DNA of 64,000 bases, taken from an uncultured Alphaproteobacteria bacterium. Its GTDB lineage: Bacteria; Pseudomonadota; Alphaproteobacteria; Rs-D84. The stretch's first letter is position 1; each line of letters begins with the position of its first letter. Made by a program: the position numbers and the translations under genes. The notes under the pieces are model-generated. The model was not told the origin of the DNA and searched no databases. It saw only the letters and a program-made list of their open reading frames with translations. The DNA lies in the NCBI GenBank assembly GCA_944389555.1, contig CALXMU010000001.1, positions 68,676 to 132,675 of the forward strand. The letters are read 5' to 3'. Positions 29,445 to 43,048 of this stretch are shown here, in pieces.

Positions 29445-29473
29445 TTGTTGAAAATTGTTGAAATTGTTATAAT
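29445..29473 (+). promoter_or_regulatory. Sigma70-like promoter for virB3/virB4 (TTGTTG-17-TATAAT)
   Basis: -35 at 29445-29450, a 17-nt spacer, perfect -10 TATAAT at 29468-29473, 32 nt upstream of the virB3 ATG; it sits in an AT-rich region with repeated ttgaaaa motifs. Confidence 0.5.
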
Positions 29474-29504
29474 TCTAGCAATAGGTGGGAGTAAAAATCC
29501 AAAA

Positions 29505-29801
29505 ATGAAGCAACAAGTATTAAAAGCATTGGCAAATCCGGCGCGAATATTTTACGTGCCTTACTCGCTTGCGGTAATAAATTTTGCGGTACAATTCATT
29601 GTTTTTATTATAGTTTTTGTTTTGGGGTTGATGGTGCAAGGCTCAGATGTAAAGGTCGAACCTATTTACTTTTTGGTGTCCGTTTGCGTTGTTCACATGA
29701 TTTTGGCTTTTTATTCTAAAAAAGAACCTCAATTAGGGCAGATTATATCTGCAAAAATTCAATTATTTAAACAAAAGGTTCCAAGAAGGTTGGCGGCGTA
29801 A
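29505..29801 (+). CDS. virB3: Type IV secretion system protein VirB3
   Basis: ~98 aa, two TM segments, immediately upstream of virB4; start at the internal ATG with a GGTGGGAG RBS. Confidence 0.7.
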   Translation: MKQQVLKALANPARIFYVPYSLAVINFAVQFIVFIIVFVLGLMVQGSDVKVEPIYFLVSVCVVHMILAFYSKKEPQLGQIISAKIQLFKQKVPRRLAA

Positions 29802-29804
29802 GAA

Positions 29805-32222
29805 ATGAATGGATTTTTTGAACACTTTGCTGGCGGAGAATTCCCTTTAACGGCTACGATTCTTGTTATGGCCGTGGTTTTCTTATTTATTATACTTATG
29901 ATGTATCTACCGGTTTTGACGCGTAAAATTTTTCCAAAATTTGGTTATACTCGTTATTCTCAATATTTACCTTTCAAAACGGTCTATACTGATAATTCTA
30001 TGACTTTGTCTGACGGTAGCATTATTAGGGTATATAGAATATCTGGTGTTCAAACAAGTATGCAAGATGATGAACAAAGGGCAAAGTTTTTAGACTTGCG
30101 GTCTCAATTATTTAATCAGATTAAAGACCCTAATGTAGTATTACGTTTTTATACAATTCGTGATGCCGTCGGTGAAAATACTAATTATGAGTTTGATCAG
30201 CCTGTTTTACAGAAAATTTATGATAAGTGGAAATCTCAGGGATTAAAGATTTTTACTAATAATTATTACGTTGTTCTTTCTGTTGGTGGTGCTAATGCAA
30301 GAGATAAATTAAATCAATATGGAAATTACATAGAATCTATACTTGCTGCGTATAAACCTAAGTTATTACGTAATGATTCTTCTGATAATATGGCCAAATT
30401 TTTTGGACGTATTTTATCACCAATTACTAAACCTGCACCAATGGTTTGTAATCAAGATATATCAAACGTTGTTACTGTTGATGATGTTGAGTTTATAAAT
30501 AACGGATTGATAAAATATATCGGTGACGGAAGACAATCTTTTGCTGCTGCTATTTCGTTTAAAATTTCTCCAGATTATTTGGATGAGGATTTCTTTAATT
30601 CTGTTTATACAATACAAACAGAAATGATTTGTATGAACGCTTTCAAGATTATGGGGGCCGCTGATATAGAATCTACGTTACGTCAGCGTCGCGCAACCGC
30701 GGACGAAAAAGAAGTTTCTACATCAGAACAAATATCTGTTGCAGAAACAGCAATGGATGAAAATATTTCAGGTAACCAAAGTTTAGTAAATTATTATCCT
30801 TTGTTTTTAATTTTTGCGGCAAGCGTTGAAGAACTTGAAAAACATATAGATGAATTTAATAAAATTGCTGCGTCTTTCGGTGTTTCACCGATTGTAGAAT
30901 CTTTTGCTTCAAAAGTATCATGGTTTGCACAAATACCAGGTTTTGACGTATTTCCACGTAGTTTCAAAATGCTGTCTCGTACTGCTGCGGTAAGTATACC
31001 TATGTCAAGTACACCACGCGGTGTTTCAAATTGTGATTGGGGTCCTGGACCGCTAGTAATTTTCCCTACAGCGCAAGGAACACCGTATCAATTTCAATTT
31101 CATGTATCAGATAAACCTGCAGCTGTTGCACATACTTTAACTATCGGACCAACAGGTGGCGGTAAGACGACTTTATTTAGTTTCTTGATAGCGCAATCCT
31201 TACGGCATAAGAAATTAAAAGCATTTTTCTTTGATAGAAATAAAGGCGCAGAAATATTTACTTTATCTGTCGGTGGTAAGTATATAACTATGCAGGGTAA
31301 AGATAATAAAAACAAAGAAGAAAATTCTTTTGAAACACATTTAAATCCATTAAAAATGCCGGATACAGCTGCTAATCGTGCTTTCTTGCGACGTTGGTTT
31401 GCTATGATTTCTGGTCAGGAAGATGCTAATTCTGCAGATGAAATAGCACGTGCTGTTTCTGTGAATTTTGATTATCTGAATCAAAATGATAGGTTGTTAA
31501 AGAATTTATGGGAAAGTTGTTTTTCTTCGTCTGGTAATATGCGCGCCGCATTAAAAAAATGGGTTGATCCATTGCAATACGGTGATATATTTAATGAAAG
31601 CTCTGATACGTTAGATTTAAACGCTCGTTTAACTACTTTTGATTTCACGGATATTTTACAAGACGAAACTTTGGCACCAGCAGTAATCTCTTATATTTTA
31701 CATAGAATAAACAATATTACTGTATCTGGTGGAAATCCGTCTTTGATTATGATTGATGAAACTGCACCTATGTTGGAAAATAAGATGTTCCGTGATAATT
31801 TCATTGCGGGATTACAAGAAGGACGTAAAAATAGACAGGCTTATATGGTTGCTTTCCAACGTGCGAATGTTTTAGATAAACTTGGAATAGGTGATGTCGT
31901 TCGCGGTCAAGCACAAACTGTTTTATTCTTCCGTAACCCTGCTGCAGATACTTCGGATTATCAATATTGGAACTTAAATCCTCTTGAAATGGCGTTTATA
32001 CAAGGTAAAGCGTATCCTAACTTAAAAAGAGCGGTTTTATTATCAAGACCCGTTACAGGTGAATCTGTGATATTAAATACAGAATTAGGAGGACTTGGAA
32101 ATTTATTGCGTTTGTTCGAATCTGGACGTTCTTCGGTTTTATTAGCAGAAGAATTATATGCTCAATACGGTAATAATTTCGTTACTGAGTATTTGAAAAA
32201 GCAGGGAGCAGGTGATTTATAA
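29805..32222 (+). CDS. virB4: Type IV secretion system ATPase VirB4
   Basis: 805 aa; Walker A GPTGGGKTT; an N-terminal hydrophobic segment (TATILVMAVVFLFIILMMYLPVL) not typical of canonical VirB4 (start choice uncertain). Confidence 0.9.
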   Translation: MNGFFEHFAGGEFPLTATILVMAVVFLFIILMMYLPVLTRKIFPKFGYTRYSQYLPFKTVYTDNSMTLSDGSIIRVYRISGVQTSMQDDEQRAKFLDLRSQLFNQIKDPNVVLRFYTIRDAVGENTNYEFDQPVLQKIYDKWKSQGLKIFTNNYYVVLSVGGANARDKLNQYGNYIESILAAYKPKLLRNDSSDNMAKFFGRILSPITKPAPMVCNQDISNVVTVDDVEFINNGLIKYIGDGRQSFAAAISFKISPDYLDEDFFNSVYTIQTEMICMNAFKIMGAADIESTLRQRRATADEKEVSTSEQISVAETAMDENISGNQSLVNYYPLFLIFAASVEELEKHIDEFNKIAASFGVSPIVESFASKVSWFAQIPGFDVFPRSFKMLSRTAAVSIPMSSTPRGVSNCDWGPGPLVIFPTAQGTPYQFQFHVSDKPAAVAHTLTIGPTGGGKTTLFSFLIAQSLRHKKLKAFFFDRNKGAEIFTLSVGGKYITMQGKDNKNKEENSFETHLNPLKMPDTAANRAFLRRWFAMISGQEDANSADEIARAVSVNFDYLNQNDRLLKNLWESCFSSSGNMRAALKKWVDPLQYGDIFNESSDTLDLNARLTTFDFTDILQDETLAPAVISYILHRINNITVSGGNPSLIMIDETAPMLENKMFRDNFIAGLQEGRKNRQAYMVAFQRANVLDKLGIGDVVRGQAQTVLFFRNPAADTSDYQYWNLNPLEMAFIQGKAYPNLKRAVLLSRPVTGESVILNTELGGLGNLLRLFESGRSSVLLAEELYAQYGNNFVTEYLKKQGAGDL

Positions 32223-32225
32223 AAA

Positions 32226-32846
32226 ATGGATTTAAAGAAATATTTTTGTTCTTTTTTTATTTTATTATTTTCACCGGCTTTTGCCTATGATGATTGTTTG
32301 CCTTATAAATTTACACCAAAAGTTGTTTTAGACATTCCTGTATGGACAAAAGAAGTTGTTCAACCGTTAAGATTTATGGATTTATTTCATGGTAATGTTA
32401 GCGCGACTATGGTTGATAATTATGACATAGTTGCCGATATAACTAATATAGAAGATGGTTATTGTGTATCTTTGAAATCTATTTATGCAACTGTTGGATA
32501 TAGTAACTTTTTAGTACAGATAGATATAAGAAACAAACCAGAAACATGTTCGTATAATGCAGTTTTAGCGCATGAAGATGAGCATATTAGGGCGTATCTT
32601 TCTGTAATAGATGACTATAAAAAAGAATTACAAGATTCAATATATAGTGCTGCAGATTCTATCACTCCGATATTTGTACGTAGTCGTGATGATATAGATG
32701 CAGCGATAAATGAATTAAACGCAGAATTACAGGCGCATCCAGATTTAATTTTGGTAAAGCAGAAAATAAAAGCCGCCGAAGAAATTCGCAATAAACGTAT
32801 AGATCAGAATAATACTGGTGAATCATTAAGAAAATGTTTTGAATAA
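32226..32846 (+). CDS. Hypothetical secreted protein (signal peptide) co-transcribed after virB4
   Basis: N-terminal signal FILLFSPAFAYDDC; contains an HEDEH (HExxH-like) stretch that may be coincidental. Confidence 0.5.
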   Translation: MDLKKYFCSFFILLFSPAFAYDDCLPYKFTPKVVLDIPVWTKEVVQPLRFMDLFHGNVSATMVDNYDIVADITNIEDGYCVSLKSIYATVGYSNFLVQIDIRNKPETCSYNAVLAHEDEHIRAYLSVIDDYKKELQDSIYSAADSITPIFVRSRDDIDAAINELNAELQAHPDLILVKQKIKAAEEIRNKRIDQNNTGESLRKCFE

Positions 32847-32856
32847 TAAAGGTCAT

Positions 32857-33207
32857 ATGATGAAAAAAATAATATTTTTTATTTTCGGTTTACTTTTAGC
32901 CGCATGCGGTGAAAACGTAAACATAGAAGGTAAATGGGTAGAACCTGTACCTGGTATGCCAGAAATACAGCAGGGTTTTAATTTAGAGCAGGGAGGTAAA
33001 GCTGAATCAATAAACATGGCGACTTTGCAGTATTATGCGTGGGAAGTTAAAGATAATACATTGATATTATCTGGTAAAAGTATAGGTAATCATCAGACGA
33101 TTGAGTTTACAGAAGAATATGAAATCGCAAGTGTTGATGACGATAAGTTAGTATTAAAGAACGGTGATTATGTTCGTGAATTTGTAAAATGTATGGATTG
33201 TGAGTAA
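32857..33207 (+). CDS. Hypothetical lipoprotein (lipobox LLAAC)
   Basis: MMKKIIFFIFGLLLAACGEN signal/lipobox; last gene before the island boundary. Confidence 0.5.
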   Translation: MMKKIIFFIFGLLLAACGENVNIEGKWVEPVPGMPEIQQGFNLEQGGKAESINMATLQYYAWEVKDNTLILSGKSIGNHQTIEFTEEYEIASVDDDKLVLKNGDYVREFVKCMDCE

Positions 33208-33211: not shown

Positions 33212-33240
33212 AAACCGCCATATTTAATGGCGGTTTAAAA
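33212..33240 (+). terminator. Terminator hairpin after the vir-associated lipoprotein gene
   Basis: aaaccgccatatttaatggcggttt + aaaaatc. Confidence 0.55.
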
Positions 33241-33242: not shown

Positions 33243-33289
33243 CTGGTTGCGGAGTGTGGATTTGAACCACAGACCTTCAGGTTATGAGC
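33243..33289. repeat. 47-bp direct repeat = duplicated 3' part of tRNA-Met (attL/attR-type island boundary)
   Basis: Identical to 42972-43018 (tggttgcggagtgtggatttgaaccacagaccttcaggttatgagcc); the sequence diverges immediately afterwards. Confidence 0.85.
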
Positions 33290-33458
33290 CAGTTTTTTAC
33301 CAGGTTGATTAAATTTGTTTTATATTCATTTAATTGAATAAAGTGCTTGATTTCTGCGATTTTTTAGATATTGTGTATTTATATAGATTTATTGATTTTT
33401 ATTTTTATGGTAGCCCCAAGGTAGCCCTGTATGAATAAATCAATAAAAAGGATGATAG

Positions 33459-34607
33459 ATGACAGATTTGAAAAAATTTACAATATCTTACCTTGATGGT
33501 TTAAAGAGTGCAGAAAAGGGCAAACGTTACAGTGTTTATGATAGTATATGTCCGCAATTAGGTTTGCGTGTCACTGATAGCGGTAGTAAATCATTTTTTG
33601 TCATGAAAAAAATGCCAGGCACAATGAAAGTTGTTCGTATAACTTTGGGAAAGTATCCAGTTATGACTATATCGCAAGCACGGGATGCTGCCATGGAAGC
33701 CACAAGATATATTTCACAGGGAATAAATCCAAATGATGATAAAAGGCGTTTCAGAGAGCAAGCGACGTTGGGTGAATTGTATAAAGATTTTATGGAACGT
33801 TATTCTAAGAAAGAGAAAAAATCTTGGAAATATGATGAACGTGAAATAGTAAAGTTTTATGGTGATTGGTTTAATCGTAAAATATCCAGTATTACCAAAC
33901 AGCAGATACAGAAAAGGCATGAAGATATAAGATCTAATCATGGTTTATACCAAGCCAACAGATGTTTAGAGCGTTTGCGTGCTATGTACAATAAAGCTAT
34001 AGAGTGGGGTTGGGATGGCTTAAACCCTACTAATGGCATAAAAAAGTATAAAGAGATAAAACGTGATAGATTTTTGTTGGCTAGTGAGGCTAAAGCTTTT
34101 TTTAGTTCTTTGGATGCGGAAGAGAATACGGTTGCTAGAAATTATTTTTATATGGCGTTGTTTACCGGTGCACGTAAGACAAATGTTCTTGAAATGCGCT
34201 GGGATCAAATAGATCTAAAAAACGCTATATGGCGTATTCCTGATACAAAAAATGGCGAACCTGTTATTGTACCCCTGATACCTGCAGCAGTTGAATTGCT
34301 AAAGCGAATACCAAAAGATTCTGAATGGGTGTTTCCTAATCCACGGTCGACCAGTGGACATTTTGAAGACCCTAAAAAGCCATGGGCAAGAATTCTTGAA
34401 CGTGCTGGGATAACAGATTTAAGAATTCATGACATAAGACGTACACTGGGTTCATGGCAGGCTTTGACTGGTGCAAGTCTTCCGATAATAGGTAAGTCGT
34501 TAGGGCATAAATCTACAGAAGCGACTCAGATATATGCACGGTTAAGCAATGACCCTGTCCGTGACAGTATGACGAAGGCAGTAACGGAATTAATGGGGCA
34601 AAAGTAG
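33459..34607 (+). CDS. int: Tyrosine site-specific integrase (P4-like, with N-terminal arm-binding domain)
   Basis: Catalytic R..HDIRRT..LGHKS..TQIYAR (R-H-R-Y) motifs; N-terminus typical of P4-family integrases. Confidence 0.9.
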   Translation: MTDLKKFTISYLDGLKSAEKGKRYSVYDSICPQLGLRVTDSGSKSFFVMKKMPGTMKVVRITLGKYPVMTISQARDAAMEATRYISQGINPNDDKRRFREQATLGELYKDFMERYSKKEKKSWKYDEREIVKFYGDWFNRKISSITKQQIQKRHEDIRSNHGLYQANRCLERLRAMYNKAIEWGWDGLNPTNGIKKYKEIKRDRFLLASEAKAFFSSLDAEENTVARNYFYMALFTGARKTNVLEMRWDQIDLKNAIWRIPDTKNGEPVIVPLIPAAVELLKRIPKDSEWVFPNPRSTSGHFEDPKKPWARILERAGITDLRIHDIRRTLGSWQALTGASLPIIGKSLGHKSTEATQIYARLSNDPVRDSMTKAVTELMGQK

Positions 34608-34608
34608 T

Positions 34609-35289
34609 CTATTCTTGTGGGGTGGTCCCCCTAGTAAAAAGCGTTAGTTGTTGAAGTTCGAATAAATTTGATTTTTTTATTGAGTTTTTTCGTATCTTAT
34701 TTATGAGAATGTGTAATTTACATTTTCCTAATCTTTCTCCACAACCGCACGGGCATATTTTTTTATTTGCCAATCTTTTTTTTGTACAGATTAGATTTAA
34801 GATTTTTAAGACTTGTTCATTTGTTTTTACATTAAAAATATTTTTGTAGTCTTCTAATATTCCCTCATATCCATGTGTTAATTCACCAAAAACGAATTTT
34901 TCTATGGATATGGAATATAAAAACGGGTCAACACAATTTTTTATAAAACCCTTTATCGTAGGTTCTTTTGCTATTTCAGATAAAATTCTTATTCTTGATC
35001 CCAAGCATAAATTATCTTTGCCTATATTATACCAATTTATATGGTGATCTCCGTCACGCGGTATTCTACCAGCGGTTTCGATTACTGTTGGTATTTCATA
35101 AGGAAAATTATGTGGAACTTCAATTTTTAAGTCATAAAAATCATTTATGTAATGCTGTCCTGATTTGATTGCAATAAGATTGTATTTGCCGGTTAGTGTT
35201 AAACACGTATCGGTTTCTTTCATTATTTTCATGCCTGGATTTTCAAGCAAAAATTCTCGTAGTCCAATTTTATCCCATTTTTTTAGCAT
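34609..35289 (-). CDS. E2-like (UBC-fold) protein, CBASS Cap2 'short' type, with a C-terminal Cys cluster
   Basis: HHINWYNIGKDNLCLG matches the UBC HPN...G.ICL catalytic-Cys region; C-terminus has CPCGCGERLGKCKLH; its start overlaps the upstream CD-NTase gene by 7 nt. Confidence 0.55.
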   Translation of the reverse strand: MLKKWDKIGLREFLLENPGMKIMKETDTCLTLTGKYNLIAIKSGQHYINDFYDLKIEVPHNFPYEIPTVIETAGRIPRDGDHHINWYNIGKDNLCLGSRIRILSEIAKEPTIKGFIKNCVDPFLYSISIEKFVFGELTHGYEGILEDYKNIFNVKTNEQVLKILNLICTKKRLANKKICPCGCGERLGKCKLHILINKIRKNSIKKSNLFELQQLTLFTRGTTPQE

Positions 35290-36434
35290 CTGTGCGGCCT
35301 TATTTGAACGTTATCTAAGTTTGTAGGTTTTTTTAGGTTTTGATTTACGAAATGTTTCGGTGTTAAATTATTTTCATCAATTGTTACGCCAAATTTATTT
35401 TTGGCTTCTTTTAATATAGTGTCGCTATTTAGGTTGTTAATGATTAAATCAAAGTCAATTTGTGCCATATATAGCCATCTTTCAAATTCTTTTTTTAATT
35501 CTTTGTTTTGTTCCCATTTATCTGCGAAGTTTTCTTCGGGAATAGTTGGGTTTTTTACTTTATAATTTGATTCTTGCAATATTTTTTCCATACGATTTAA
35601 AATGCCAATAATAGCTTCGTTTATTGTATTTTCTCCTTGGTAGGCTTTAGCTGCTAATGTCGTTATGATAATAGAAATTGGCTTTAATGACTGATTGTCG
35701 TTTTTGTACATAATATCCCTGTGTCGTTTTAATAGTTGTACGCAGCGTTGTAAAATAGTTTTTTGTAAAAAAGTTGGTACAGGTTTACAATCTTCATTTA
35801 ATATTAAACTCTGTTGAAAGTTTTTTTGCTTTTTCATGCGGCCTTCAAACCATTGCGCATATCCTTCTGGGTTACTTATATTCCAATTTAGTGAAATATT
35901 ATTATAATCCTTGTTTCTGTCGTCGGTTATATTGTATGCAAATTTTACCAAGTTGTTTGCGTCTGTTGTAGGTATGTCGTTACGTAATAGGCTTTCTGTA
36001 AGCAATTTGTTTGTGTCTTCGAGTGTCGGAATTCCTGGCACAATGTCCATATAAAAATTAGGTTTTCCTCTGTACTGTAATCTTATACAACGATGTTTTT
36101 GTTCTAAAGGTTCTATAATTCCGTTTATATCACGGTATTTTTCAATTTGTTTTTGTACTAATTCTTTTAATTGTTTTTGGCTTATGTGTAGGATATCAAT
36201 GTTCTTTTTTAGTTTGCAAGTTAGATCTAAATCATATGGTTCTTCTGGATTTAATGGTTTTATGGCTGTTCCTAATCTGAAAGAGCCTTGAGGAAAAATT
36301 TCTGGTTCATAACTTTTTATTTCAGATTGAAGAGCCAAAAATGAACCTAAAGATTCATATCTTTCTGTGGCAATATCATATTCTGTTTTTGTTAGTTCAA
36401 TTTTTTCTAGTATCAAATTTAAGATGTTAGACAT
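35283..36434 (-). CDS. cGAS/DncV-like nucleotidyltransferase (CD-NTase, SMODS-like)
   Basis: Pol-beta-type motif GSFRLGTAIKPLNPEEPYDLDL (GS...GTA...[DE]hDh) and downstream acidic residue(s); RBS AGGA. Confidence 0.7.
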   Translation of the reverse strand: MSNILNLILEKIELTKTEYDIATERYESLGSFLALQSEIKSYEPEIFPQGSFRLGTAIKPLNPEEPYDLDLTCKLKKNIDILHISQKQLKELVQKQIEKYRDINGIIEPLEQKHRCIRLQYRGKPNFYMDIVPGIPTLEDTNKLLTESLLRNDIPTTDANNLVKFAYNITDDRNKDYNNISLNWNISNPEGYAQWFEGRMKKQKNFQQSLILNEDCKPVPTFLQKTILQRCVQLLKRHRDIMYKNDNQSLKPISIIITTLAAKAYQGENTINEAIIGILNRMEKILQESNYKVKNPTIPEENFADKWEQNKELKKEFERWLYMAQIDFDLIINNLNSDTILKEAKNKFGVTIDENNLTPKHFVNQNLKKPTNLDNVQIRPHRC

Positions 36435-36435
36435 T

Positions 36436-37605
36436 TTATTTTCCTATTGTAATTGTTTTGTGAAATCCTAAGTTGTTTTTTCTGTTTCTGTCAAAAATTA
36501 TTAAGCCTAAGTCTGCTTTTGGCATCCATACGCGGCCAAATTCAATAGCTGTTGAAATTGGCATGGCTGGAAAAACGTTTATCTTTTGGTTTGTGCCGTG
36601 TACTCGCTTTATTTCACGCAACACTTCTTTGATTTTTTCTTTGAAAGCATCTAGGTGTTTTTTGCTTTTTATACAATCGTTATTTGGTTCTTTTATTGTT
36701 AATGTCCAAATAGCAACATTTTCGCCGATTGTTTTTTTTATATCTTCATCAGATATTGAGTCGCTTAGTGAAATTTTAAGTGCTATTCCTGTCCCTGTGT
36801 TTTTTGGGGGAATTATTTTGAAATCTAAATTATTTTCATCTTGTAACCAATTCCATGTTTTAGGTGTTCGGTGTAGCTGAAATATTTCAGCATTCGGTTT
36901 GTCTGTTAGTAGTTGGCCAAGTTTTATCAAGATAGGAATTGGGGCGATTGCGAATATTGATAGATTTTTTATATCGCCGTCTTTTTCTATTCTAGGAAGC
37001 AATTTTTGATAAAAACTTTTTTCAAGTGAACGTTCTGTGATATTCCAAAAATCGGTTTCGCTATCGTTTTCTGAAAGCCCCTGTATTCCAAGTTCTATTG
37101 TTGGTTGTTGGCTTGGAAAATATCCGTTGTTCATGACTGCTTCGTAAGCCATGTTTTCAATAACAGGGGTTCTTGTATTGTTTATGTCAAAAACACATGT
37201 AACAATGTTACTGTATTTGTCTTTTGTAAAACCTGTTAGGTATTCGATTCTATTTTCGTGTTCTTTTTTTATTTTTTTTAGACAATCTTCAGAATATCTT
37301 TTTCTGTTACGGTCTATTTCTCTGTGGCAAGTTGGGCATAGTAATAGAATGTTGTTTATATCTTTTGTTAGTTCTTGTGATCGTAATCTGTCGCCACGCA
37401 CCCAATCTGGGCTATTGGCAACGTTATGTGCTTTGTCTGCGATAGGATATTCAAACGCCTTGTCGAAAGTGTCTCTATAAAGAATTCTGTTGCACCTTTC
37501 ACATCGACCGCCTGCTTTCACCCAAAGAATAAAAGTTGACTGAGATGGTAGAACTGAACGGATGTGTTTTGTTTTGGTATAATTGCTTTTTTTATTTGTG
37601 TCCAT
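36436..37605 (-). CDS. HNH endonuclease-SAVED domain effector (Cap5-like)
   Basis: N-terminal HNH: CERCN...HNV...N...CPTCH; ~250-aa C-terminal domain consistent with a SAVED sensor; 1-nt gap to the CD-NTase gene. Start set at the internal ATG with an AAAAAGGGGA RBS (the ORF could begin at 37638). Confidence 0.7.
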   Translation of the reverse strand: MDTNKKSNYTKTKHIRSVLPSQSTFILWVKAGGRCERCNRILYRDTFDKAFEYPIADKAHNVANSPDWVRGDRLRSQELTKDINNILLLCPTCHREIDRNRKRYSEDCLKKIKKEHENRIEYLTGFTKDKYSNIVTCVFDINNTRTPVIENMAYEAVMNNGYFPSQQPTIELGIQGLSENDSETDFWNITERSLEKSFYQKLLPRIEKDGDIKNLSIFAIAPIPILIKLGQLLTDKPNAEIFQLHRTPKTWNWLQDENNLDFKIIPPKNTGTGIALKISLSDSISDEDIKKTIGENVAIWTLTIKEPNNDCIKSKKHLDAFKEKIKEVLREIKRVHGTNQKINVFPAMPISTAIEFGRVWMPKADLGLIIFDRNRKNNLGFHKTITIGK

Positions 37606-37650
37606 TATAAAATCCCCTTTTTGCGCAATCATATCCATTAAACAAACTGA

Positions 37651-37679
37651 TTGACGCGATTCGCGGGATTTTGTATAAT
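37651..37679 (+). promoter_or_regulatory. Near-consensus sigma70 promoter (TTGACG-17-TATAAT), divergent from the CBASS operon
   Basis: -35 at 37651-37656, 17-nt spacer, -10 at 37674-37679; followed ~40 nt downstream by a hairpin + T-run (37714-37760). Confidence 0.5.
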
Positions 37680-37972
37680 TAGGACTGGCTAGGGTACCTA
37701 ATTATTGGATATCCCGTGGGAATTCGCTCTTTTTTGCGGATTCCCTCTATTTATTTTTTTGTTGTTCGTTACATTTTTTACCCTTCATTAAGGTTTATCG
37801 TACAATAATGAAACTGTTTGTCAATATATTTTATGAATAAAAATAGATTTTTTTGATAAAATATGATAATGTAATATATAAATACAAATTGTATACAAAA
37901 ATATATACTTGACTATTTTATATTTTGTACTATATATTTTTGATATAAAGTGGTTTAAATACGAGGATTGAG

Positions 37973-38314
37973 ATGAGTAATATTTTTGATATTTGTAATT
38001 TGGACGATGTTCCAAAAAGCATAAAAGAAGGTTTGAAACGTGATCATTTTGGGGATGAAATAATCCAATTATTTAAAATAGCAAATCGGCCACTGACTGT
38101 AAATGAAGTGTATATAGCGCATTTTAGGATGTTTTCATCAAGTATGAATTCTGATGGTGAATATAAAATAAAAGAAAATACGAAACCGAAAACAAAACGT
38201 CAAATAATGTTGAAACTCTACAATATGAGCAAAGAAAAAGACGCTATGATAGAGGCTATTGATCGTGGGGTTTATAAATTAAAAAAAAATGAGCCGAATT
38301 TGTTTGATTTGTAA
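37973..38314 (+). CDS. Hypothetical small basic protein (113 aa) in the island
   Basis: Preceded by a TTGACT..TATATA-like promoter and an RBS GAGGATTGAG; no recognizable motif. Confidence 0.4.
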   Translation: MSNIFDICNLDDVPKSIKEGLKRDHFGDEIIQLFKIANRPLTVNEVYIAHFRMFSSSMNSDGEYKIKENTKPKTKRQIMLKLYNMSKEKDAMIEAIDRGVYKLKKNEPNLFDL

Positions 38315-38399
38315 ATTTATATTATCTTCGTATTTTATAATTAATAGCGTAAATATTGCATTTGCAAAATAGAAACTAATCAGTTAAAATTAATATGAA

Positions 38400-38640
38400 T
38401 CCAATGGGAATTGGGTTCGGGACTGTTGCAAGTCCGTCTTGTTCGGTGTGACCTACAATAGGGGCATCGTTAGTGTGATGTCTTTCCTGTAGTTTTGCAT
38501 CGTTATTTATCCCTGACTCTTATGCAAGTCGGGGAGCTGTTTGTTATACAACAGGGGTAACCCGAAGACAGCAGAATCAATAACAAGATGATTTGCAAAC
38601 TCCCCGACCGCCATTCCTTTGGCGGTTTACGTTTTTAGGT
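38400..38640 (+). ncRNA. Unassigned structured non-coding segment ending in a rho-independent terminator
   Basis: No ORF of 60 aa or more on either strand; GC higher than its surroundings; multiple hairpins (ggact-gttgca-agtcc; gtcggggag...ctccccgac; ccgccattcctttggcgg + TTTACGTTTTT). Confidence 0.3.
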
Positions 38641-38653
38641 TAAAAGGGGAAAT

Positions 38654-39079
38654 ATGAGAAAATTTTTAATAACTGTATTGGTATTATTTCTTGTTAATTT
38701 TATATTGGCATATTTTTTCATGTTGGGTTTCAATATAGTTGGAAGAGATTCTTACGGTGCTATAGCAAGTGGTATTACCGGTAGTGTTTTTGGAGGAATG
38801 CTTGTGATTCTTTGGCCGTATTTGATATTTTACAAGCTGTTTACCTGGAAAAAGTTCGTTGTTATTTCGTTAGTATTATTCGCAAATGTTTTTGGCTGGA
38901 TAAATATAATACTTCCTAACACTATGGAAGTTGCACCAAAAACGTCTAATTTTTTATTGCTTTGGTGGGTAGTTATTACGCCATTGATACTTTTGATATT
39001 GGCTATCTTCAAATACCCGGAGTGGTTTGAAATAAAAAAAGATAATACTGATAAGAAAATAGGAAAAACAGATGGATAG
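38654..39079 (+). CDS. Hypothetical 4-TM membrane protein
   Basis: Hydrophobicity pattern; RBS AAAGGGGA. Confidence 0.5.
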   Translation: MRKFLITVLVLFLVNFILAYFFMLGFNIVGRDSYGAIASGITGSVFGGMLVILWPYLIFYKLFTWKKFVVISLVLFANVFGWINIILPNTMEVAPKTSNFLLLWWVVITPLILLILAIFKYPEWFEIKKDNTDKKIGKTDG

Positions 39080-39389
39080 ATTTTATGATTTATTTTTTAT
39101 GAGTTTAATAGTAATTGCGCTGTTAGCAGTATTGTGCTGGCCAGCGCTTATAAAGGTACCAATGCGCTGGTTGTATAAAGCAATTATTAAAACTATAAGA
39201 TTTTTTATACCCAAAAATCTTGGTATTAAAAGGCTGTGTTTGGTTATATCCATATTGTCTGTTTGTTGTGTTCTTTTTGTTGCAGATAAGTTTGTTTTAG
39301 CACTATGTTTGTTAGCGTTTGTTTTGCCCTTTATAGCAGCAAAAACCGTTGAATATATCATCGCTGGGTTTAATGAAAGCAAAAGGTAG
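39072..39389 (+). CDS. Hypothetical 3-TM membrane protein
   Basis: Overlaps the upstream ORF by 8 nt (translational coupling). Confidence 0.45.
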   Translation: MDRFYDLFFMSLIVIALLAVLCWPALIKVPMRWLYKAIIKTIRFFIPKNLGIKRLCLVISILSVCCVLFVADKFVLALCLLAFVLPFIAAKTVEYIIAGFNESKR

Positions 39390-39396
39390 AGTTTTT

Positions 39397-39909
39397 ATGT
39401 TAGGATTTTCTTTATTGTTATTTTTGTTAGTTGGTAATGAAGCTTTTGCGTCTTCTGTTTTATCAAATGTTCCTGATGGAACACTGTTCCATTCTACACA
39501 AGCGCCTAAATCTGAGCCGATTGTTGAATTAAATGATCCTGTTGGACATCCTGATTCTGTTGTTATTGATTCTACACAAAGGGAATGGCAGCAGTTTGAA
39601 GGAGGTTTGCCTGGAGAAAGGGTAAATGCAAATATTCGTACTGTAGGTGATGATGCAAATGGGTTTTATTTAGAAAGCAAAAGTCGTTTTTACCCAGTTG
39701 CTGAATATAAAATAGACAAACCGTGCTTGCCAGAAGTTACTAATGTCGTAACTGATTCTCCAGATCCAGAAAAAATAGCGTCTCAGATTGCGGAACATTA
39801 TCAAGGCATAAATGTAGACAATTTTATTGGATATGATCATATTCCAGAATATTCAGGTGCTCCTTGGTTGCAAAGTTTTTTTGGTGGAATGAGTACAGTT
39901 TTATTCTGA
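39397..39909 (+). CDS. Hypothetical secreted protein (signal peptide)
   Basis: MLGFSLLLFLLVGNEAFASS signal; RBS AAAGGTAGAG. Confidence 0.45.
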   Translation: MLGFSLLLFLLVGNEAFASSVLSNVPDGTLFHSTQAPKSEPIVELNDPVGHPDSVVIDSTQREWQQFEGGLPGERVNANIRTVGDDANGFYLESKSRFYPVAEYKIDKPCLPEVTNVVTDSPDPEKIASQIAEHYQGINVDNFIGYDHIPEYSGAPWLQSFFGGMSTVLF

Positions 39910-39979
39910 TAAACGGTCTATAAACGTTTTTCTCATTTTCTCACCTTTATATATTGTGAGAAAATGAGAATTGGTCGTG

Positions 39980-41023
39980 TTATATTTCAATTTCTTTGTA
40001 AGTTTCTTTTTCTTGTGCAGCTTCTTTTGCGATTTTATCAGGTTTCTTGATTCCTGCATCGTTCAGAATTCTGTATATTGTTGCTGGCGAAATATCTATA
40101 ATTTTAGATATTTCTTTTACGCTTTTACCTTCATATAGCAAGTCCATTATAGGTTTCACCTTTTCTTCTGTTTCTTCCATAGGTGTGTCTTGTAAAACCC
40201 ATGATGATGAAATTATTTTTCCTGTGTCATTATCTTGTTCTGAAATAAGACGTGCCGCAAATGATGCAACAGATTTACCAGCTACACTTCTGCTTTTTGT
40301 GTATCTGGCAATTATTGCTGCGCCATTTTTGGGGTTATGACCTTGTGGAGTTTTTAATAGCAAAGATGTATCTAGCAGTGTTTCTATTGCAGACGATCCT
40401 CGGCCGCCACGTTCGATATCTTTACCTGTATGATGAACCCACATTACAGAACGGTCTTTGTGTCTTTGTTTTAAAGACCATTTGTTAAACTTTTGCCAAC
40501 TTGCAGCAGAGTTTTCGTCTTGGCACTCATATAGAGTGAATACATTATCTACTATTATTAAATCTACATGACCAAGTTTCGTGATGGCTTGCTCTAATAC
40601 ATCCCAATCATTTTCGTTGTAGAAGTTTATCATAGGGTTATCGCCTTGAAAATCTGATCCAAAAATAAAAAGATTATCTCTGTTGACTTTCTTTCCTTCT
40701 TTTTCAAAACCTGCGATTAGTTGATTCATTCTATCCTGTAGTGTTTTTCCATTCATTTCCCCGTCTATGTATAGAACTCTACGTGGTTTATCAGCTTTAA
40801 AACCGAGGAAATTAAATCCTGATGCGGTTGCAATAGCTGCCGCCATTGCAAAATAACTTTTACCTACACCACGTGCAGCAGATACAAGAGAAATCCCTTT
40901 TTGTGGTATTAGTGGGTACAATAGCCACTCTATCTCTGGTATATCCATTTTTAGTAGGGTATCAGCTGAAAAAATGTTAGGTGTGTAGTCAATCTGTTGT
41001 GTAATAATGTCTTCTGTTTTCAT
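39980..41023 (-). CDS. RecA-fold AAA ATPase (RepA/AAA_25-like helicase-loader type) with C-terminal HTH; island replication protein
   Basis: Walker A SAARGVGKSYFA, Walker B DLIIVDNV, C-terminal HTH SVKEISKIIDISPATIYRIL. Confidence 0.75.
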   Translation of the reverse strand: MKTEDIITQQIDYTPNIFSADTLLKMDIPEIEWLLYPLIPQKGISLVSAARGVGKSYFAMAAAIATASGFNFLGFKADKPRRVLYIDGEMNGKTLQDRMNQLIAGFEKEGKKVNRDNLFIFGSDFQGDNPMINFYNENDWDVLEQAITKLGHVDLIIVDNVFTLYECQDENSAASWQKFNKWSLKQRHKDRSVMWVHHTGKDIERGGRGSSAIETLLDTSLLLKTPQGHNPKNGAAIIARYTKSRSVAGKSVASFAARLISEQDNDTGKIISSSWVLQDTPMEETEEKVKPIMDLLYEGKSVKEISKIIDISPATIYRILNDAGIKKPDKIAKEAAQEKETYKEIEI

Positions 41024-41880
41024 GATAGTACTCCTTGAAGTTGATTTTTTACAGTGTCAATACCGTATCTTACGTGAATGTCATTAAAGTCGGATACACC
41101 CCTTATGTTCGGTGGCAGTATCACTTTTAACCTGTGTTGTTTTGCCGCAGATGTTGCTGATTCTTTTCCGACATTTACTTCTTTTTCCCAGTCGTTATCA
41201 GCAGCTATAATGATATTTGCGCTGGGATATTTTTTACTTATTGCATCTACAACAGGTTCAATATTTCCAGCATTCATTGCAGCGATTGTGTATAAACCAG
41301 TTGCTTGATATATTGTGGCGGCTGTGGCAAAACCCTCGCAAACAATGATAGTTGGTGTTAAATCTCCTATTGGGTGAAAACAACCCTTGGTTCTTCCGCC
41401 ATTTAGAAAGTATTTCTTACCATTGGAAGATATAGTTTGCCATGACCATATCTTGCCGTTAGTATCATATAAAGGTATTACTAAATTATCCGTTGGTGCA
41501 TCGTATTTTGCAGACAATGGTAAAATATGTTTCTTTTTCAAATATTCATGTGCCTTAGGTGCATCAAAAAGAGAGGGTGTTCTTTTTGTTACATTGTCAG
41601 AAATGTGAATTTGCTCGATTTTTTGTGCGTTTTTAAAGTGTTGTTGTTCGGTATGTATTTTTTCTTTGATTTCCTGTAGTTGTTGTGAAGTGACAGTTTT
41701 AGCGTTTTTAGGAAATGCAAAAGCACGCGTGTTTTGTGACCAGTCGCCAAAAATATATCCTTCGCCTACTGGAAAAAGCCAATAACGTTTGTTCTTTCCC
41801 CATCTGGTAAAACCGTCAAAGTTTACACATGGAGGGTAAGGAATGTTATTCTCTGTTAGGGCTGTATATAAAAAATCCAT
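41020..41880 (-). CDS. TOPRIM-domain primase (P4 alpha / plasmid primase-like)
   Basis: TOPRIM motifs IIVCEGFATAA and IIIAADNDWE; overlaps the ATPase gene by 4 nt. Confidence 0.75.
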   Translation of the reverse strand: MDFLYTALTENNIPYPPCVNFDGFTRWGKNKRYWLFPVGEGYIFGDWSQNTRAFAFPKNAKTVTSQQLQEIKEKIHTEQQHFKNAQKIEQIHISDNVTKRTPSLFDAPKAHEYLKKKHILPLSAKYDAPTDNLVIPLYDTNGKIWSWQTISSNGKKYFLNGGRTKGCFHPIGDLTPTIIVCEGFATAATIYQATGLYTIAAMNAGNIEPVVDAISKKYPSANIIIAADNDWEKEVNVGKESATSAAKQHRLKVILPPNIRGVSDFNDIHVRYGIDTVKNQLQGVLS

Positions 41881-42080
41881 TATTCTACCTCTTTGTTATG
41901 GGTGTTATCGTGTTGTTGGCGCTTCAGGTAATTCATTATTTCGGTAGTGTCATATAAAACACGTCTTCCGACCTTTACCCATTTAAATGGGCTAGTTCCG
42001 TTTATACGCCAAGTTGCCAATGTGTTCGGTTTGATTTTCAGTAAGTTAGATAGCTCGACCGTTGTTAGGTAGTTATTCAT
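41880..42080 (-). CDS. alpA: AlpA-family phage transcriptional regulator/excisionase-like
   Basis: 66 aa; LSNLLKIKPNTLATWRINGTSPFKWVKVGRRVLY HTH pattern. Confidence 0.65.
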   Translation of the reverse strand: MNNYLTTVELSNLLKIKPNTLATWRINGTSPFKWVKVGRRVLYDTTEIMNYLKRQQHDNTHNKEVE

Positions 42081-42229
42081 ATTTAACCTCCTTTGGTTGA
42101 GCGCAATGTAGGGGAGAAAAAGAATTTTGTCTTGGATAAAGCGGTTTAACCCACTTGGGGTAAACCCATAAAAAAGATTGAATTTCTGGGAAAAATAAGG
42201 ATAAAAAAGATTTGTGTTTTAAATAGGGG

Positions 42230-42808
42230 TTAACCCTTTTTCCAACCACCTTTTTGTGATTCTGGTTTACGAATCATGGTAGCAATTTTGGTTGCCATTG
42301 ATTTGGATTTGGGTAATCCTCGCAATTCCATTTCTTTTTCAATTTCTGCAACTAAAAACTCTTTTTTACCTTGATTAGTATCTGATATGTGTTCCTGTTT
42401 TATAATTTTTTTAGCTATTTCAAGGTAGGGGGTAGTATATTCGTCATTCGCTGTTTTGATTGGATGTTTTGGAGGAAAACCGTCTTTTAGATTTTCTATT
42501 AATACTTCTACTTCTGTAAAAATTGGCATACCAAGTTCGCCTGCATAGTAGAAATCATCTTCATAGGTTATAGAATTGGTACTGTATTCGATTATAGATG
42601 GTGGAGCTATTGTAACTGATGTACGTTTTCCGCTTCTGCTGTTGATTCCAGTAGCGTGTATAGCACCAATTTTTATGGCTTCTAGTAATGTCTCTGTAGC
42701 AGGTTCTAATTCATCACTTCTTTTAAGCCATTCTTCTGTTGTAAGTTTTTCACCGCGAAAAGCAATCCATACAACGGCTTCCTGAAGGGAACAATAGGTT
42801 CGTTTCAT
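42230..42808 (-). CDS. Hypothetical protein (192 aa), first gene inside the right island end
   Basis: ORF only. Confidence 0.4.
   Translation of the reverse strand: MKRTYCSLQEAVVWIAFRGEKLTTEEWLKRSDELEPATETLLEAIKIGAIHATGINSRSGKRTSVTIAPPSIIEYSTNSITYEDDFYYAGELGMPIFTEVEVLIENLKDGFPPKHPIKTANDEYTTPYLEIAKKIIKQEHISDTNQGKKEFLVAEIEKEMELRGLPKSKSMATKIATMIRKPESQKGGWKKG

Positions 42809-42971: not shown

Positions 42972-43048
<77 letters not shown>

What the first reader, a model, noticed from the sequence alone, without database searches (positions are those of the whole stretch)
34609..37638. CBASS-like anti-phage operon (HNH-SAVED effector, CD-NTase, E2-only Cap2) as island cargo
Three tightly packed minus-strand genes (1-nt gap, then a 7-nt overlap) sit next to the integrase, in the usual defence-hotspot position of P4-like satellites. 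(i) A 389-400-aa protein with an N-terminal HNH nuclease motif (CERC...HNV...N...CPTCH) and a long C-terminal domain, which matches the Cap5 HNH-SAVED architecture. (ii) A 383-aa protein with the Pol-beta NTase signature GSFRLGTAIKP...YDLDL typical of cGAS/DncV-like cyclases. (iii) A 226-aa protein whose HHINWYNIGKDNLCL region matches the UBC HPN...ICL catalytic core, i.e. an E2-only Cap2 ('type II-short'), plus an unusual C-terminal CPCGCGERLGKCKLH Zn-ribbon-like tail. The effector-cyclase-E2 gene order is atypical, and the cyclase ends in ...RPHRC rather than a Gly/Ala C-terminus, even though an E2-only Cap2 is present. Finding a CBASS in this genomic context would be unusual if the lineage assignment is right.
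Basis: partly seen in the sequence, partly recalled or inferred. Interest (0 to 1): 0.8.

Follow-up and report, generated by a model that had tools for sequence, protein, structure and literature searches.

The report
CBASS defence operon on mobile island
Three tightly packed genes on a small mobile island make up a standard "type II-short" CBASS anti-phage system (a signal-making enzyme, a DNA-cutting effector and a ubiquitin-E2-like regulator), so it is a new example of a known defence system whose E2-like part has not yet been studied experimentally.

Summary
In detail: all three minus-strand ORFs, their spacing and the quoted motifs are present. The main interpretation is supported.
- 36436-37638 is a Cap5 HNH-SAVED nuclease (PADLOC 8e-126; AsCap5 7RWK 2e-71).
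- 35283-36434 is a clade-G CD-NTase (PADLOC 3e-110; VcCdnG 9WOO 5e-84; GS and DxD...D invariant).
The operon is cargo of a 9.7-kb tRNA-Met integrative island. The island is absent from sister strains and replaced by a different island in another strain.
- The order Cap5-cyclase-E2 recurs in loci from many phyla.
- The Zn-binding C-terminal motif is invariant across the E2 subfamily, which has about 1,650 clusters at 50% identity.
- The cyclase ending RPHRC is an instance of a conserved [KR]-P-[W/H]+2-4 tail, seen in 110 of 119 homologues and in the biochemically studied VcCdnG.
- The host is an uncultured alphaproteobacterium, where CBASS is not surprising.
One question stays open. This E2 subfamily keeps the Cys/His/His active site of the Serratia E2, but its cyclase partners lack the conserved C-terminal glycine that the Serratia E2 acts on.
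Verdict: a new member of a known kind, of modest interest.

The parts
36436..37638 (-). cap5: HNH-SAVED effector nuclease. The probable true start is 37605 (389 aa). The HNH/Zn-finger region lies at about 37312-37503 and the SAVED domain at about 36445-37023.
   Evidence: PADLOC PDLC00739 'Effector/Endonuclease' 8e-126 and SAVED_HNH 6e-119. Pfam SAVED 6e-49. PDB AsCap5 7RWK 1.9e-71. C46/C49/C101/C104, H71, N96, H105 and D109 (M1 numbering) are invariant in A3. SD sequence before M12.
35283..36434 (-). cdnG: clade-G cGAS/DncV-like nucleotidyltransferase, 383 aa. G50-S51 lie at 36282-36287, D68/D70 at 36225-36233 and D130 at 36045-36047.
   Evidence: PADLOC cyclase PDLC00780 2.6e-110. Pfam DncV-like_NTFase 1.5e-11 and SMODS 3e-8. 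PDB VcCdnG 9WOO 4.7e-84 and SmCdnG 8HSB 1e-34. Catalytic residues invariant in A2. AF2 pLDDT 87.8.
35769..35834 (-). Candidate surface 'activation loop' of the cyclase, residues about 201-222 (KKQKNFQQSLILNEDCKPVPTF).
   Evidence: This is the only internal low-confidence segment of the AF2 model: pLDDT 69/55 for blocks 201-220. It sits between the lid helix and the C-lobe, at the place where Hobbs & Kranzusch map the protease-sensing loop of clade-G enzymes (PMC12991175). The assignment is an inference.
35286..35300 (-). Cyclase C-terminal tail motif R379-P380-H381-R382-C383, an instance of the subfamily motif [KR]-P-[WH]+2-4 residues. It is the proposed E2 recognition/processing site.
   Evidence: 110 of 119 homologues carry xP[WH] in the last 14 residues, against 0.03 expected. 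Almost all E2-linked cyclases in 60 genome loci have it. VcCdnG ends ...DPKPW393+3. The tail is disordered in the AF2 model.
34609..35289 (-). E2-like (UBC-fold) protein, 226 aa, with no E1 or JAB partner. H83 lies at 35041-35043, C95 at 35005-35007 and H139 at 34873-34875.
34711..34755 (-). SEC-C-like Zn-knuckle of the E2 (C179-P-C181-G-C183-...-C190-K-L-H193), preceded by the KKRLANK motif.
   Evidence: C179 and C190 are 100% conserved and C181 96% in 139 members. There is a weak profile match to the SecA Zn-binding peptide 1ozb. Pfam SEC-C hits 2 of 21 members. Some plasmid homologues are annotated as SEC-C metal-binding proteins.
37797..37824 (-). Promoter-like site (TTGACA-16-TACGAT) about 190 nt upstream of cap5. 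The 195-nt leader between them is predicted to be structured.
   Evidence: Consensus scan, 10/12 match; the count of such sites in the region is no higher than in shuffled sequence, so this is only a candidate. The leader folds with z = -3.6.
33459..34607 (+). Tyrosine integrase of the island, convergent with the CBASS operon.
   Evidence: Pfam Phage_integrase 2.9e-25 and Arm-DNA-bind_3 1e-13. PHROG 1 integrase 2.8e-58.
33244..33290 (.). att repeat at the integrase-proximal end of the island: a displaced copy of the 3' 47 nt of tRNA-Met.
   Evidence: Direct repeat D1. Sequence. Comparison with the empty site in L073.
42972..43048 (-). Intact tRNA-Met(CAT). Its 3' 47 nt (42972-43018) form the other att repeat. 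The island spans about 33291-43018, a 9,728-bp unit.
   Evidence: ARAGORN, Rfam, repeat D1.
39980..42080 (-). Island replication/regulation module: an AlpA-like HTH_17 protein (41880-42080), a Toprim primase (41020-41880) and an AAA_25 helicase-like ATPase with a C-terminal HTH (39980-41023).
   Evidence: Pfam. PHROG 2249 DNA primase 3e-56 and PHROG 906 1e-24.

Best explanation
This is an intact three-gene type II-short ('E2-only') CBASS anti-phage operon, cap5-cdnG-e2. It is carried as cargo on a 9.7-kb integrase/primase island inserted in the 3' end of tRNA-Met of an uncultured alphaproteobacterium.

Proposed working:
(1) The three genes are co-transcribed and translationally coupled (1-nt gap, then 7-nt overlap).
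(2) The clade-G CD-NTase is kept nearly inactive until infection. Its disordered C-terminal tail, ending in the conserved [KR]-P-[W/H] motif (here RPH-RC), is the handle for the E2-like protein. The E2 has the same Cys/His/His active-site set as the Serratia E2. By analogy, it trims the residues after the motif and links the cyclase covalently (thioester, then isopeptide) to prime or activate it. A surface loop (about residues 201-222) may additionally be cut by phage proteases.
(3) The activated cyclase makes 3'2'-cGAMP.
(4) 3'2'-cGAMP binds the SAVED domain of Cap5, drives it from dimer to tetramer and switches on the HNH nuclease. The nuclease degrades DNA and aborts the infection.

Shown here: the identities, folds, catalytic residues, operon structure, island boundaries and island mobility. 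Inferred by homology: the product, effector activation and E2 chemistry. The E2 step is the least certain, because the conserved glycine used in Serratia is absent. The confidence given (0.85) is for the identity and overall logic of the system; for the covalent E2 step alone I would give about 0.4.
For: Identity of the parts: PADLOC full-length matches of 8e-126, 3e-110 and 3e-68. Pfam SAVED, DncV-like_NTFase and SMODS are above their cut-offs. NCBIfam SAVED also matches.

Solved relatives: AsCap5 7RWK 2e-71, VcCdnG 9WOO 5e-84 and SmCdnG 8HSB 1e-34.

No E1 or JAB: none is found among the neighbours.

Product and effector logic: AsCdnG, VcCdnG and EcCdnG all make 3'2'-cGAMP, which activates their Cap5 (PMC8568899, PMC12804361, PMC12991175).

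E2 chemistry precedent: SmE2 C101/H87/H152 cleave after G406 and form thioester and isopeptide links (bioRxiv 10.1101/2022.05.25.493364).

Tail motif: found in 110 of 119 homologues against 0.03 expected, followed by a short variable 'leaving' peptide of 2-4 residues. The tail is disordered in the AF2 model.

Mobility: a 47-nt att repeat; an empty site in L073, L074, L076 and L077; a different island in L075.
Against: No experiment exists on this operon or on any E2 of this subfamily. The conserved C-terminal Gly that defines the Serratia mechanism is absent, so covalent conjugation is unproven here. The AF2 monomer does not show the helix plus three-stranded sheet 'E2-binding motif' described for SmCdnG (compared with PMC12948482). 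The E2 gives no sequence-level match to SmE2 or to Pfam Prok-E2 families; only the fold and the active-site residues agree. The promoter assignment is a consensus match only. The host is uncultured, and no phage of it is known.
Confidence: 0.85

Rival explanations
1. The E2-like protein is a non-covalent regulator (UEV-like adaptor or inhibitor). It binds the cyclase's [KR]-P-[WH] tail without cleaving or conjugating it, and the Zn-knuckle domain senses a phage cue.
Against: Cys95, His83 and His139 are 100% invariant across 139 members that are only 25-48% identical. That level of conservation is hard to explain without catalysis, and it mirrors SmE2 C101/H87/H152. The short variable peptide after the motif looks like a leaving group.
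Confidence: 0.2
2. The operon is a decaying or silent passenger on the island and no longer provides defence.
For: The 1-nt spacing to the convergent integrase gene leaves no room for a terminator. No expression data exist.
Against: All three ORFs are intact with every catalytic residue conserved. Identical proteins occur on dozens of contigs from independent samples. The gene junctions are compact and translationally coupled.
Confidence: 0.05
3. The carrier is a true P4-like phage satellite that deploys CBASS against competing phages from its defence hotspot, rather than a plain integrative island.
For: It has a tyrosine integrase with an Arm-DNA-binding domain, an AlpA-like HTH_17 protein and a phage-type primase (PHROG 2249, 3e-56) plus an AAA_25 helicase. 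Its size is about 10 kb, it inserts in a tRNA, and the defence cargo lies next to int.
Against: No psu/delta/sid-like or any capsid, packaging or helper-interaction gene could be recognised. Five ORFs have no hit in Pfam, PHROGs or PADLOC. Nothing related was found in IMG/VR or in the phage collection using the E2. The integrase sits at the end distal to the intact tRNA, unlike P4 (own knowledge of P4).
Confidence: 0.3

Closest known systems
Asticcacaulis sp. and Lactococcus lactis CdnG-Cap5 three-gene type II-short CBASS (Fatma et al. 2021, PMC8568899; AsCap5 7RWK, LlCap5 7RWM)
   Same: It has the same three components. AsCap5 is the closest solved relative of the effector (2e-71). [quoted passage not shown] The product is 3'2'-cGAMP, which activates Cap5.
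   Different: The host and the carrier element differ. I could not retrieve the As and Ll third-gene sequences, so their membership of the same E2 subfamily is inferred and not aligned. The third gene was not studied in that work.
Vibrio cholerae 365-96 VcCdnG-VcCap5 (PMC12804361; PDB 9WOO)
   Same: It is the closest solved cyclase (4.7e-84 over residues 3-358). It has the same K-P-W+3 C-terminal tail motif. It makes 3'2'-cGAMP, which activates its HNH-SAVED Cap5.
   Different: That paper describes Cap5 as downstream of the cyclase, whereas here cap5 is upstream. The window protein has P-H rather than P-W. The E2-like gene and the tail were not addressed there.
Serratia marcescens E2-CBASS, SmCdnG-SmE2 (Yan et al. 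2024; bioRxiv 10.1101/2022.05.25.493364; PMC12948482; PDB 8HSB/9KKB)
   Different: There is no detectable sequence similarity between the E2s. SmE2 is about 160 aa with a Lys-bearing C-terminal loop, while this E2 is 226 aa with a helical extension and a SEC-C-like Zn-knuckle. SmCdnG uses a conserved penultimate Gly and a folded helix plus beta-sheet E2-binding motif. This subfamily has [KR]-P-[WH] and a tail predicted to be disordered. The paper describes the outcome in Serratia as membrane disruption, whereas the effector here is a Cap5 nuclease.
Type II CBASS with the Cap2 (E1-E2 fusion) and Cap3 (JAB), e.g. the E. cloacae CdnD and E. coli CdnG-Cap5 operons (PDB 7TO3; PMC12991175)
   Different: There is no E1 domain and no JAB peptidase here. 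Without an E1 the chemistry cannot be ATP-dependent adenylation. The cyclase does not end in Gly or Ala.
P4-like satellite defence hotspots
   Same: It is a small tRNA-integrating element with an integrase, an AlpA-like regulator and a primase, carrying a defence system next to int. The cargo at the site varies between strains.
   Different: No psu, delta, sid or other capsid-hijacking genes were found. The primase and helicase are separate proteins. The host is an alphaproteobacterium rather than an enterobacterium.

Membership tests
CBASS (cyclic-oligonucleotide-based anti-phage signalling system) | A CD-NTase with the GS motif and the [DE]xD...D catalytic triad | tested here: met
   G50-S51, D68, D70 and D130 are invariant in A2. 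Pfam PF21654 and PF18144 are above their cut-offs. PADLOC cyclase 2.6e-110. 9WOO 4.7e-84.
CBASS | An adjacent effector with a cyclic-nucleotide sensor domain fused to a killing domain | tested here: met
   SAVED (Pfam 6e-49, NCBIfam 3e-46) fused to an HNH domain with invariant catalytic and Zn residues. The gap to the cyclase gene is 1 nt.
CBASS | Synthesis of a cyclic oligonucleotide that activates the effector, and protection against phage | not testable with these tools
   Only inferred from AsCdnG, VcCdnG and EcCdnG, which make 3'2'-cGAMP (PMC8568899, PMC12804361, PMC12991175).
CBASS type II-short (E2-only, 'E2-CBASS') | A stand-alone UBC-fold E2 protein with a catalytic Cys in the operon | tested here: met
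CBASS type II-short (E2-only) | Absence of an E1 domain and a JAB/Cap3 peptidase | tested here: met
   The E2 is 226 aa with no E1 region. No ThiF/E1 or JAB family appears among the island or flanking genes.
CBASS type II-short (E2-only) | The E2 matches Pfam PF14457 (Prok-E2_A), which according to Fatma et al. 2021 was used for the original classification | tested here: not met
   There is no Prok-E2 hit at E<=1 for the window protein or at E<=0.01 for 21 family members. This is a separate E2 subfamily, as Fatma et al. noted for the As and Ll operons.
Serratia-type E2-CBASS mechanism (SmCdnG-SmE2) | A conserved penultimate or C-terminal glycine on the CD-NTase as the attachment residue | tested here: not met
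   The window cyclase ends ...IRPHRC. Only 29 of 119 homologues have any Gly in the last 5 residues and 9 end in G or A. Instead, 110 of 119 carry xP[WH].
Serratia-type E2-CBASS mechanism | A Cys plus His protease-like active site in the E2 (SmE2 C101, H87, H152) | tested here: met
   C95, H83 and H139 are invariant in 139 diverse members. The structural equivalence of H139 to H152 was not checked because no coordinates were available.
Serratia-type E2-CBASS mechanism | A folded C-terminal helix plus three-stranded sheet 'E2-binding motif' on the cyclase | tested here: inconclusive
   The AF2 monomer shows helices up to residue 348, short helical turns to 361 and then disorder (pLDDT 40-47), with no beta-sheet. 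A complex prediction could not be run.
CD-NTase clade G (CdnG) | Closest similarity to CdnG enzymes, and the CdnG lid residues Ser/Tyr (SmCdnG S167/Y172) | tested here: met
   The best PDB hits are VcCdnG, SmCdnG and BdCdnG 7LJN. S187 and Y192 align to S167 and Y172 and are conserved in A2. No clade-wide phylogeny was built.
Cap5 (HNH-SAVED effector) | [quoted passage not shown] | tested here: met
   H71, N96, H105 and C46/C49/C101/C104 are invariant. There are full-length matches to AsCap5, LlCap5 and other Cap5 structures.
SEC-C motif (Pfam PF02810) | A C-x-C-x(8)-C-x(2)-[CH] Zn-binding knuckle | tested here: inconclusive
   The pattern CPCGCGERLGKCKLH is present, and C179, C181 and C190 are conserved. 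However, Pfam SEC-C matches only 2 of 21 members, the match to the SecA peptide has E 0.22 and the fourth ligand position varies.
P4-like phage satellite | Integrase plus AlpA plus an alpha-type primase | tested here: met
   Phage_integrase and Arm-DNA-bind_3, HTH_17, and Toprim_3 / PHROG 2249 primase with a separate AAA_25 ATPase.
P4-like phage satellite | Capsid-size and helper-manipulation genes (psu, delta, sid, epsilon) | tested here: not met
   The five remaining island ORFs (113, 141, 105, 186 and 192 aa) have no hit in Pfam, PHROGs or PADLOC. Divergence beyond detection cannot be excluded.

The most novel reading that the evidence does not exclude
The SEC-C-tailed E2 subfamily found here performs E1-independent, ubiquitin-like trimming and covalent conjugation of its cyclase at a conserved [KR]-P-[Trp/His] C-terminal motif instead of at a glycine. 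Its Zn-knuckle extension acts as the phage-responsive switch. That would be a second, chemically distinct solution to E2-only CBASS regulation, and an example of Ubl-type conjugation through a bulky aromatic or imidazole C-terminal residue. It would be a property of the whole subfamily (about 1,650 clusters at 50% identity, including the studied Vibrio system and probably the Asticcacaulis one), not of this window in particular.
Probability: 0.35. Interest if true: 0.6.

Novelty: new member of a known kind. Interest (0 to 1): 0.3.

Why it matters
As it stands, this is one more CBASS type II-short operon, found in an uncultured alphaproteobacterium. It is useful as a clean, naturally mobile example, because strains with the island, with an empty site and with an alternative island at the same site are all available.

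The wider point concerns the subfamily. The published mechanism for E2-only CBASS rests on a conserved cyclase glycine. The large Cap5-linked subfamily seen here has a different invariant tail and a Zn-binding E2 that nobody in the searched literature has studied. The cyclases and effectors of this subfamily (As, Ll, Vc) are among the best-characterised CdnG-Cap5 pairs. Testing this E2 would show whether E1-independent 'cGASylation' is general or whether E2-fold proteins regulate CD-NTases in more than one way.

Tried and rejected
- Pfam on 21 E2 family members. No Prok-E2 family matched; SEC-C matched only 2 members.
- Phage carriers of this E2. The INPHARED phage collection (tblastn) and IMG/VR gave no match.
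- Other defence genes on the island. The five unknown ORFs, the primase and the helicase gave nothing meaningful against PADLOC, and the unknown ORFs gave nothing against PHROGs. None of the island's other genes accompanies the CBASS trio in 65 related genome loci.
- The many ~9.74-kb Logan contigs carrying Cap5 as evidence for an excised circle. I rejected this. A unitig bounded by a 47-nt repeat is expected to be about 9,681 + 2x30 nt long at k=31 (my recollection of the Logan assembly setting), so the length is not diagnostic.
- Covariation between a P-H versus P-W tail and the E2 active-site loop length. It is real in the data, with 3 of 3 P-H tails paired with long loops and 39 P-W tails paired with canonical spacing. 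It is confined to one clade, however, so it cannot be separated from shared descent.
- The GTDB representative-genome scan. It did not retrieve the window's own species; the best hit was 52% identical. Lineage therefore rests on GyrB similarity to MAGs labelled Alphaproteobacteria.
- A CdnG-E2 complex prediction and inspection of model coordinates were not possible with the tools.


Full report
OBSERVATION. The three minus-strand ORFs exist exactly as described: 36436-37638 (400 aa from the first ATG), 35283-36434 (383 aa) and 34609-35289 (226 aa). There is a 1-nt gap and then a 7-nt overlap. The last gene ends 1 nt from the stop codon of a convergent tyrosine-integrase gene (33459-34607). One refinement concerns the Cap5 start. 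The third ATG (37605, giving 389 aa) is preceded by AAAGGGGA plus a 7-nt spacer, the first ATG has no Shine-Dalgarno sequence, and homology to relatives begins at residue 28.

WHAT THE GENES ARE.

Effector. The protein matches PADLOC 'Effector/Endonuclease' at 8e-126 and SAVED_HNH at 6e-119, both over the full length. It also matches Pfam SAVED at 6e-49 and NCBIfam SAVED at 3e-46. The closest solved structure is AsCap5 (7RWK, 1.9e-71), followed by other Cap5 structures. In an alignment with nine Cap5 proteins taken from related operons, the Zn-finger cysteines (C46, C49, C101, C104) and the HNH residues (H71, N96, H105, D109; numbering from M1) are invariant.

Cyclase. The protein matches a PADLOC cyclase profile at 2.6e-110 and Pfam DncV-like_NTFase and SMODS above their cut-offs. 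Its closest solved relatives are VcCdnG (9WOO, 4.7e-84), SmCdnG (8HSB, 1e-34) and BdCdnG (7LJN), all clade G. G50-S51, D68, D70 and D130 are invariant in a 22-sequence alignment. The CdnG lid residues S187 and Y192 align to SmCdnG S167 and Y172 (PMC12948482). More than 7,600 proteins match at E<=1e-10.

THE CARRIER.
- A 47-nt perfect direct repeat (33244-33290 and 42972-43018) corresponds to the 3' part of tRNA-Met(CAT) at 42972-43048. It bounds a 9,728-bp unit.
- The unit contains the integrase, the CBASS operon, four plus-strand ORFs of unknown function (two of them membrane-like), an AAA_25 ATPase with an HTH, a Toprim primase (PHROG 2249, 3e-56), an AlpA-like HTH_17 protein and a 192-aa ORF.
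- Contigs from other samples that encode the identical flanking DUF374 protein show the empty site in four distinct contexts. There, lipocalin gene, tRNA-Met and DUF374 are directly adjacent, and the sequence equals the window with the island removed, apart from one T in the crossover region.
- In L075 a different island occupies the same site. It carries another integrase, an HTH_17 protein and ResIII and methylase genes.
- Other carriers of the same CBASS island have further cargo between the integrase and the lipocalin gene. This includes a resolvase, an EcoRI-type methylase, GmrSD and a KAP NTPase.

The island is therefore mobile accessory DNA at a variable hotspot. Calling it a 'P4-like satellite' is only half-justified: the integration and replication module fits, but no capsid-manipulating genes can be recognised.

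HOST. The window is chromosomal and carries ileS, pheST, gyrB, topA, metG, aspS, mrdA and mnmG. GyrB is 88-94% identical to proteins from metagenome assemblies, and the named ones are labelled 'MAG: Alphaproteobacteria bacterium'. One of the closest genome-resident relatives of the E2 (49% identity) is in Candidatus Scatocola, a genus filed under Rhodospirillales and known from chicken-faeces MAGs. CBASS with a CdnG is already characterised in the alphaproteobacteria Asticcacaulis and Bradyrhizobium (PMC8568899, PMC12804361). The lineage is therefore not a surprising place for CBASS.

THE SUPPOSED ODDITIES ARE FAMILY NORMS.
(1) Gene order. A scan of one genome per species with the E2 alignment returned 65 loci from many lineages, among them Verrucomicrobia, Desulfobulbaceae, Bdellovibrionota, Spirochaetaceae, Acidobacteriota, Cloacimonadota and Gammaproteobacteria. 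The cyclase lies immediately upstream of the E2 in 58 of them. A Cap5 homologue lies immediately upstream of the cyclase in about 27. A Vibrio gigantis plasmid has the same trio next to a type I R-M system, and RefSeq calls its E2 'hypothetical protein'.
(2) The 'Zn-ribbon' tail. KKRLANK-x2-C-P-C-G-C-x-x-R-L-G-K-C is invariant or nearly so in the family. In 139 diverse members (25-48% identical to the window protein), C179 and C190 are 100% conserved and C181 96%. The motif resembles the SEC-C Zn-knuckle of SecA. The subfamily is large: 1,651 clusters at 50% identity with E<=1e-10.
(3) The cyclase ending. Of 119 homologues, 110 carry x-P-[W/H] within the last 14 residues, against 0.03 expected from the rest of the proteins. 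In 99 of these the x is K or R, and in 95 the motif is followed by just 2-4 residues. VcCdnG, whose structure and 3'2'-cGAMP synthesis are published, ends ...DPKPW393 plus 3 residues.

HOW IT MOST LIKELY WORKS.

Steps inferred by homology:
- The cyclase makes 3'2'-cGAMP, as AsCdnG, VcCdnG and EcCdnG do (PMC8568899, PMC12804361, PMC12991175).
- The nucleotide binds the SAVED domain.
- Cap5 goes from dimer to tetramer.
- The HNH nuclease degrades DNA (PMC8568899, PMC12141522).

Activation is the uncertain part. For Serratia, the E2 is an E1-independent Cys/His protease-ligase. It removes the residue after a conserved Gly406, then forms a thioester (C101) and isopeptide links, leading to poly-cGASylation (bioRxiv 10.1101/2022.05.25.493364; PMC12948482). 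The E2 subfamily here keeps one Cys and two His that are 100% invariant (C95, H83, H139). Its partner cyclases have a disordered tail (pLDDT 40-47 beyond residue 361) that ends in an invariant motif followed by a short variable peptide. This is the arrangement expected of a recognition site plus a leaving group. I therefore think the E2 most likely trims and covalently captures the cyclase at [KR]-P-[W/H]. This is an inference, and the defining Gly of the Serratia mechanism is not met.

A second input is possible. Hobbs and Kranzusch (PMC12991175) report that nearly all clade-G enzymes carry a surface loop whose cleavage by phage prohead proteases activates them. In the model, the only internal low-confidence segment is residues about 201-222, which is the corresponding position.

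COMPARISON AND NOVELTY. Fatma et al. [quoted passage not shown] PADLOC models all three proteins. The window is thus a new member of a known kind. What is not covered in the literature I could search is the function of this E2 subfamily and of the [KR]-P-[WH] tail. The 2026 structural paper on E2-CBASS still describes the terminal Gly as the only conserved tail feature. That gap belongs to the whole subfamily and not to this locus.

VERDICT. The claimed atypical features are explained as family traits. Interest is modest (0.3). The most novel reading not excluded is non-glycine, E1-independent conjugation by a Zn-binding E2, with probability about 0.35 and interest 0.6 if true.

Noticed in passing
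window 33409-33427 and 42895-42902 (a variant lies at 42883-42892): The octamer GGTAGCCC occurs only three times in the 64-kb window (0.35 expected; 0 of 100 shuffles reach 3). All three lie within about 140 bp of the two island ends. They are probably arm-type binding sites for the island integrase.
   Followed up: partly
window 42940-42972: Just inside the island, next to the rebuilt 3' end of tRNA-Met, there is a hairpin (CCGCAG-AATAC-TGCGG) followed by a T-run on the tRNA strand. The island appears to supply a replacement terminator for the tRNA. The original terminator hairpin (33212-33236) stays beside the displaced repeat.
   Followed up: no
window 37606-37800 (minus strand); hairpin at 37718-37745: The putative 195-nt leader of the CBASS operon folds more stably than shuffled sequence (z = -3.6, 0 of 200 shuffles). 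On the plus strand the same region holds the best promoter-like match (TTGACG-17-TATAAT, 11/12) followed by a hairpin and a T-run, upstream of the divergent 113-aa ORF. This may be a regulatory region, but it was not analysed further.
   Followed up: partly
L073, L074, L076, L077 (empty site); L075:1-9634; L004:13165-17470; L003 and L006 about 13500-16690: The tRNA-Met site is a variable hotspot in this species. It can be empty. It can hold a different island with another integrase plus ResIII and methylase genes. The CBASS island can also be followed by extra cargo: a resolvase, an EcoRI-type methylase, GmrSD and a KAP NTPase, or a 1,060-aa ORF with no domain hit.
   Followed up: partly
L016:1910-3613, L022:2733-4436, L033:2060-3613: Some related operons (Krumholzibacteriia, Spirochaetaceae and Proteobacteria MAGs) have four genes. 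A second, longer CD-NTase-like protein (517-567 aa, ending ...SGEFVVRIV with no K-P-W tail) lies upstream of cap5-cdnG-e2.
   Followed up: no
proteins P0144 and P0203 (cyclase homologues): Two close cyclase homologues end in ...DLRGGGRLG, a ubiquitin-like LRGG-type tail, instead of K-P-W. Tail type may therefore switch within this cyclase clade, presumably together with the partner enzyme.
   Followed up: no
window E2 residues 83-95 (35005-35043); L007, L009: The three cyclases with a P-His tail (window, Treponema L007, Scatocola L009) pair with E2s that have a 2-6-residue insertion between the HxN motif and the catalytic Cys. The 39 E2s with canonical H-x-N-x3-L-C spacing pair with P-Trp tails. 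This hints that the tail residue meets the active-site loop, but all the P-His cases belong to one clade.
   Followed up: partly
window 37973-38314, 38654-39079, 39072-39389, 39349-39909, 42230-42808: Five island ORFs (113, 141, 105, 186 and 192 aa; the 141- and 105-aa ones look like membrane proteins) have no hit in Pfam, PHROGs or PADLOC. They are conserved with the island across samples.
   Followed up: partly
window 29400-33207: Immediately outside the island lie VirB3-like and VirB4/TrbE-like type IV secretion genes, a 206-aa ORF with no hit and a Lipocalin_3 lipoprotein. Downstream of the island lie DUF374-lpxK-lpxC and a pilus/T2SS-like cluster (PilO-like, GspE/PilB-like ATPase, T2SSF).
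   Followed up: no
window 60868-63342 (minus strand): An 824-aa ORF has no NCBIfam or PADLOC hit and only a short N-terminal AsmA-family match (6.5e-8, residues 8-80).
   Followed up: no
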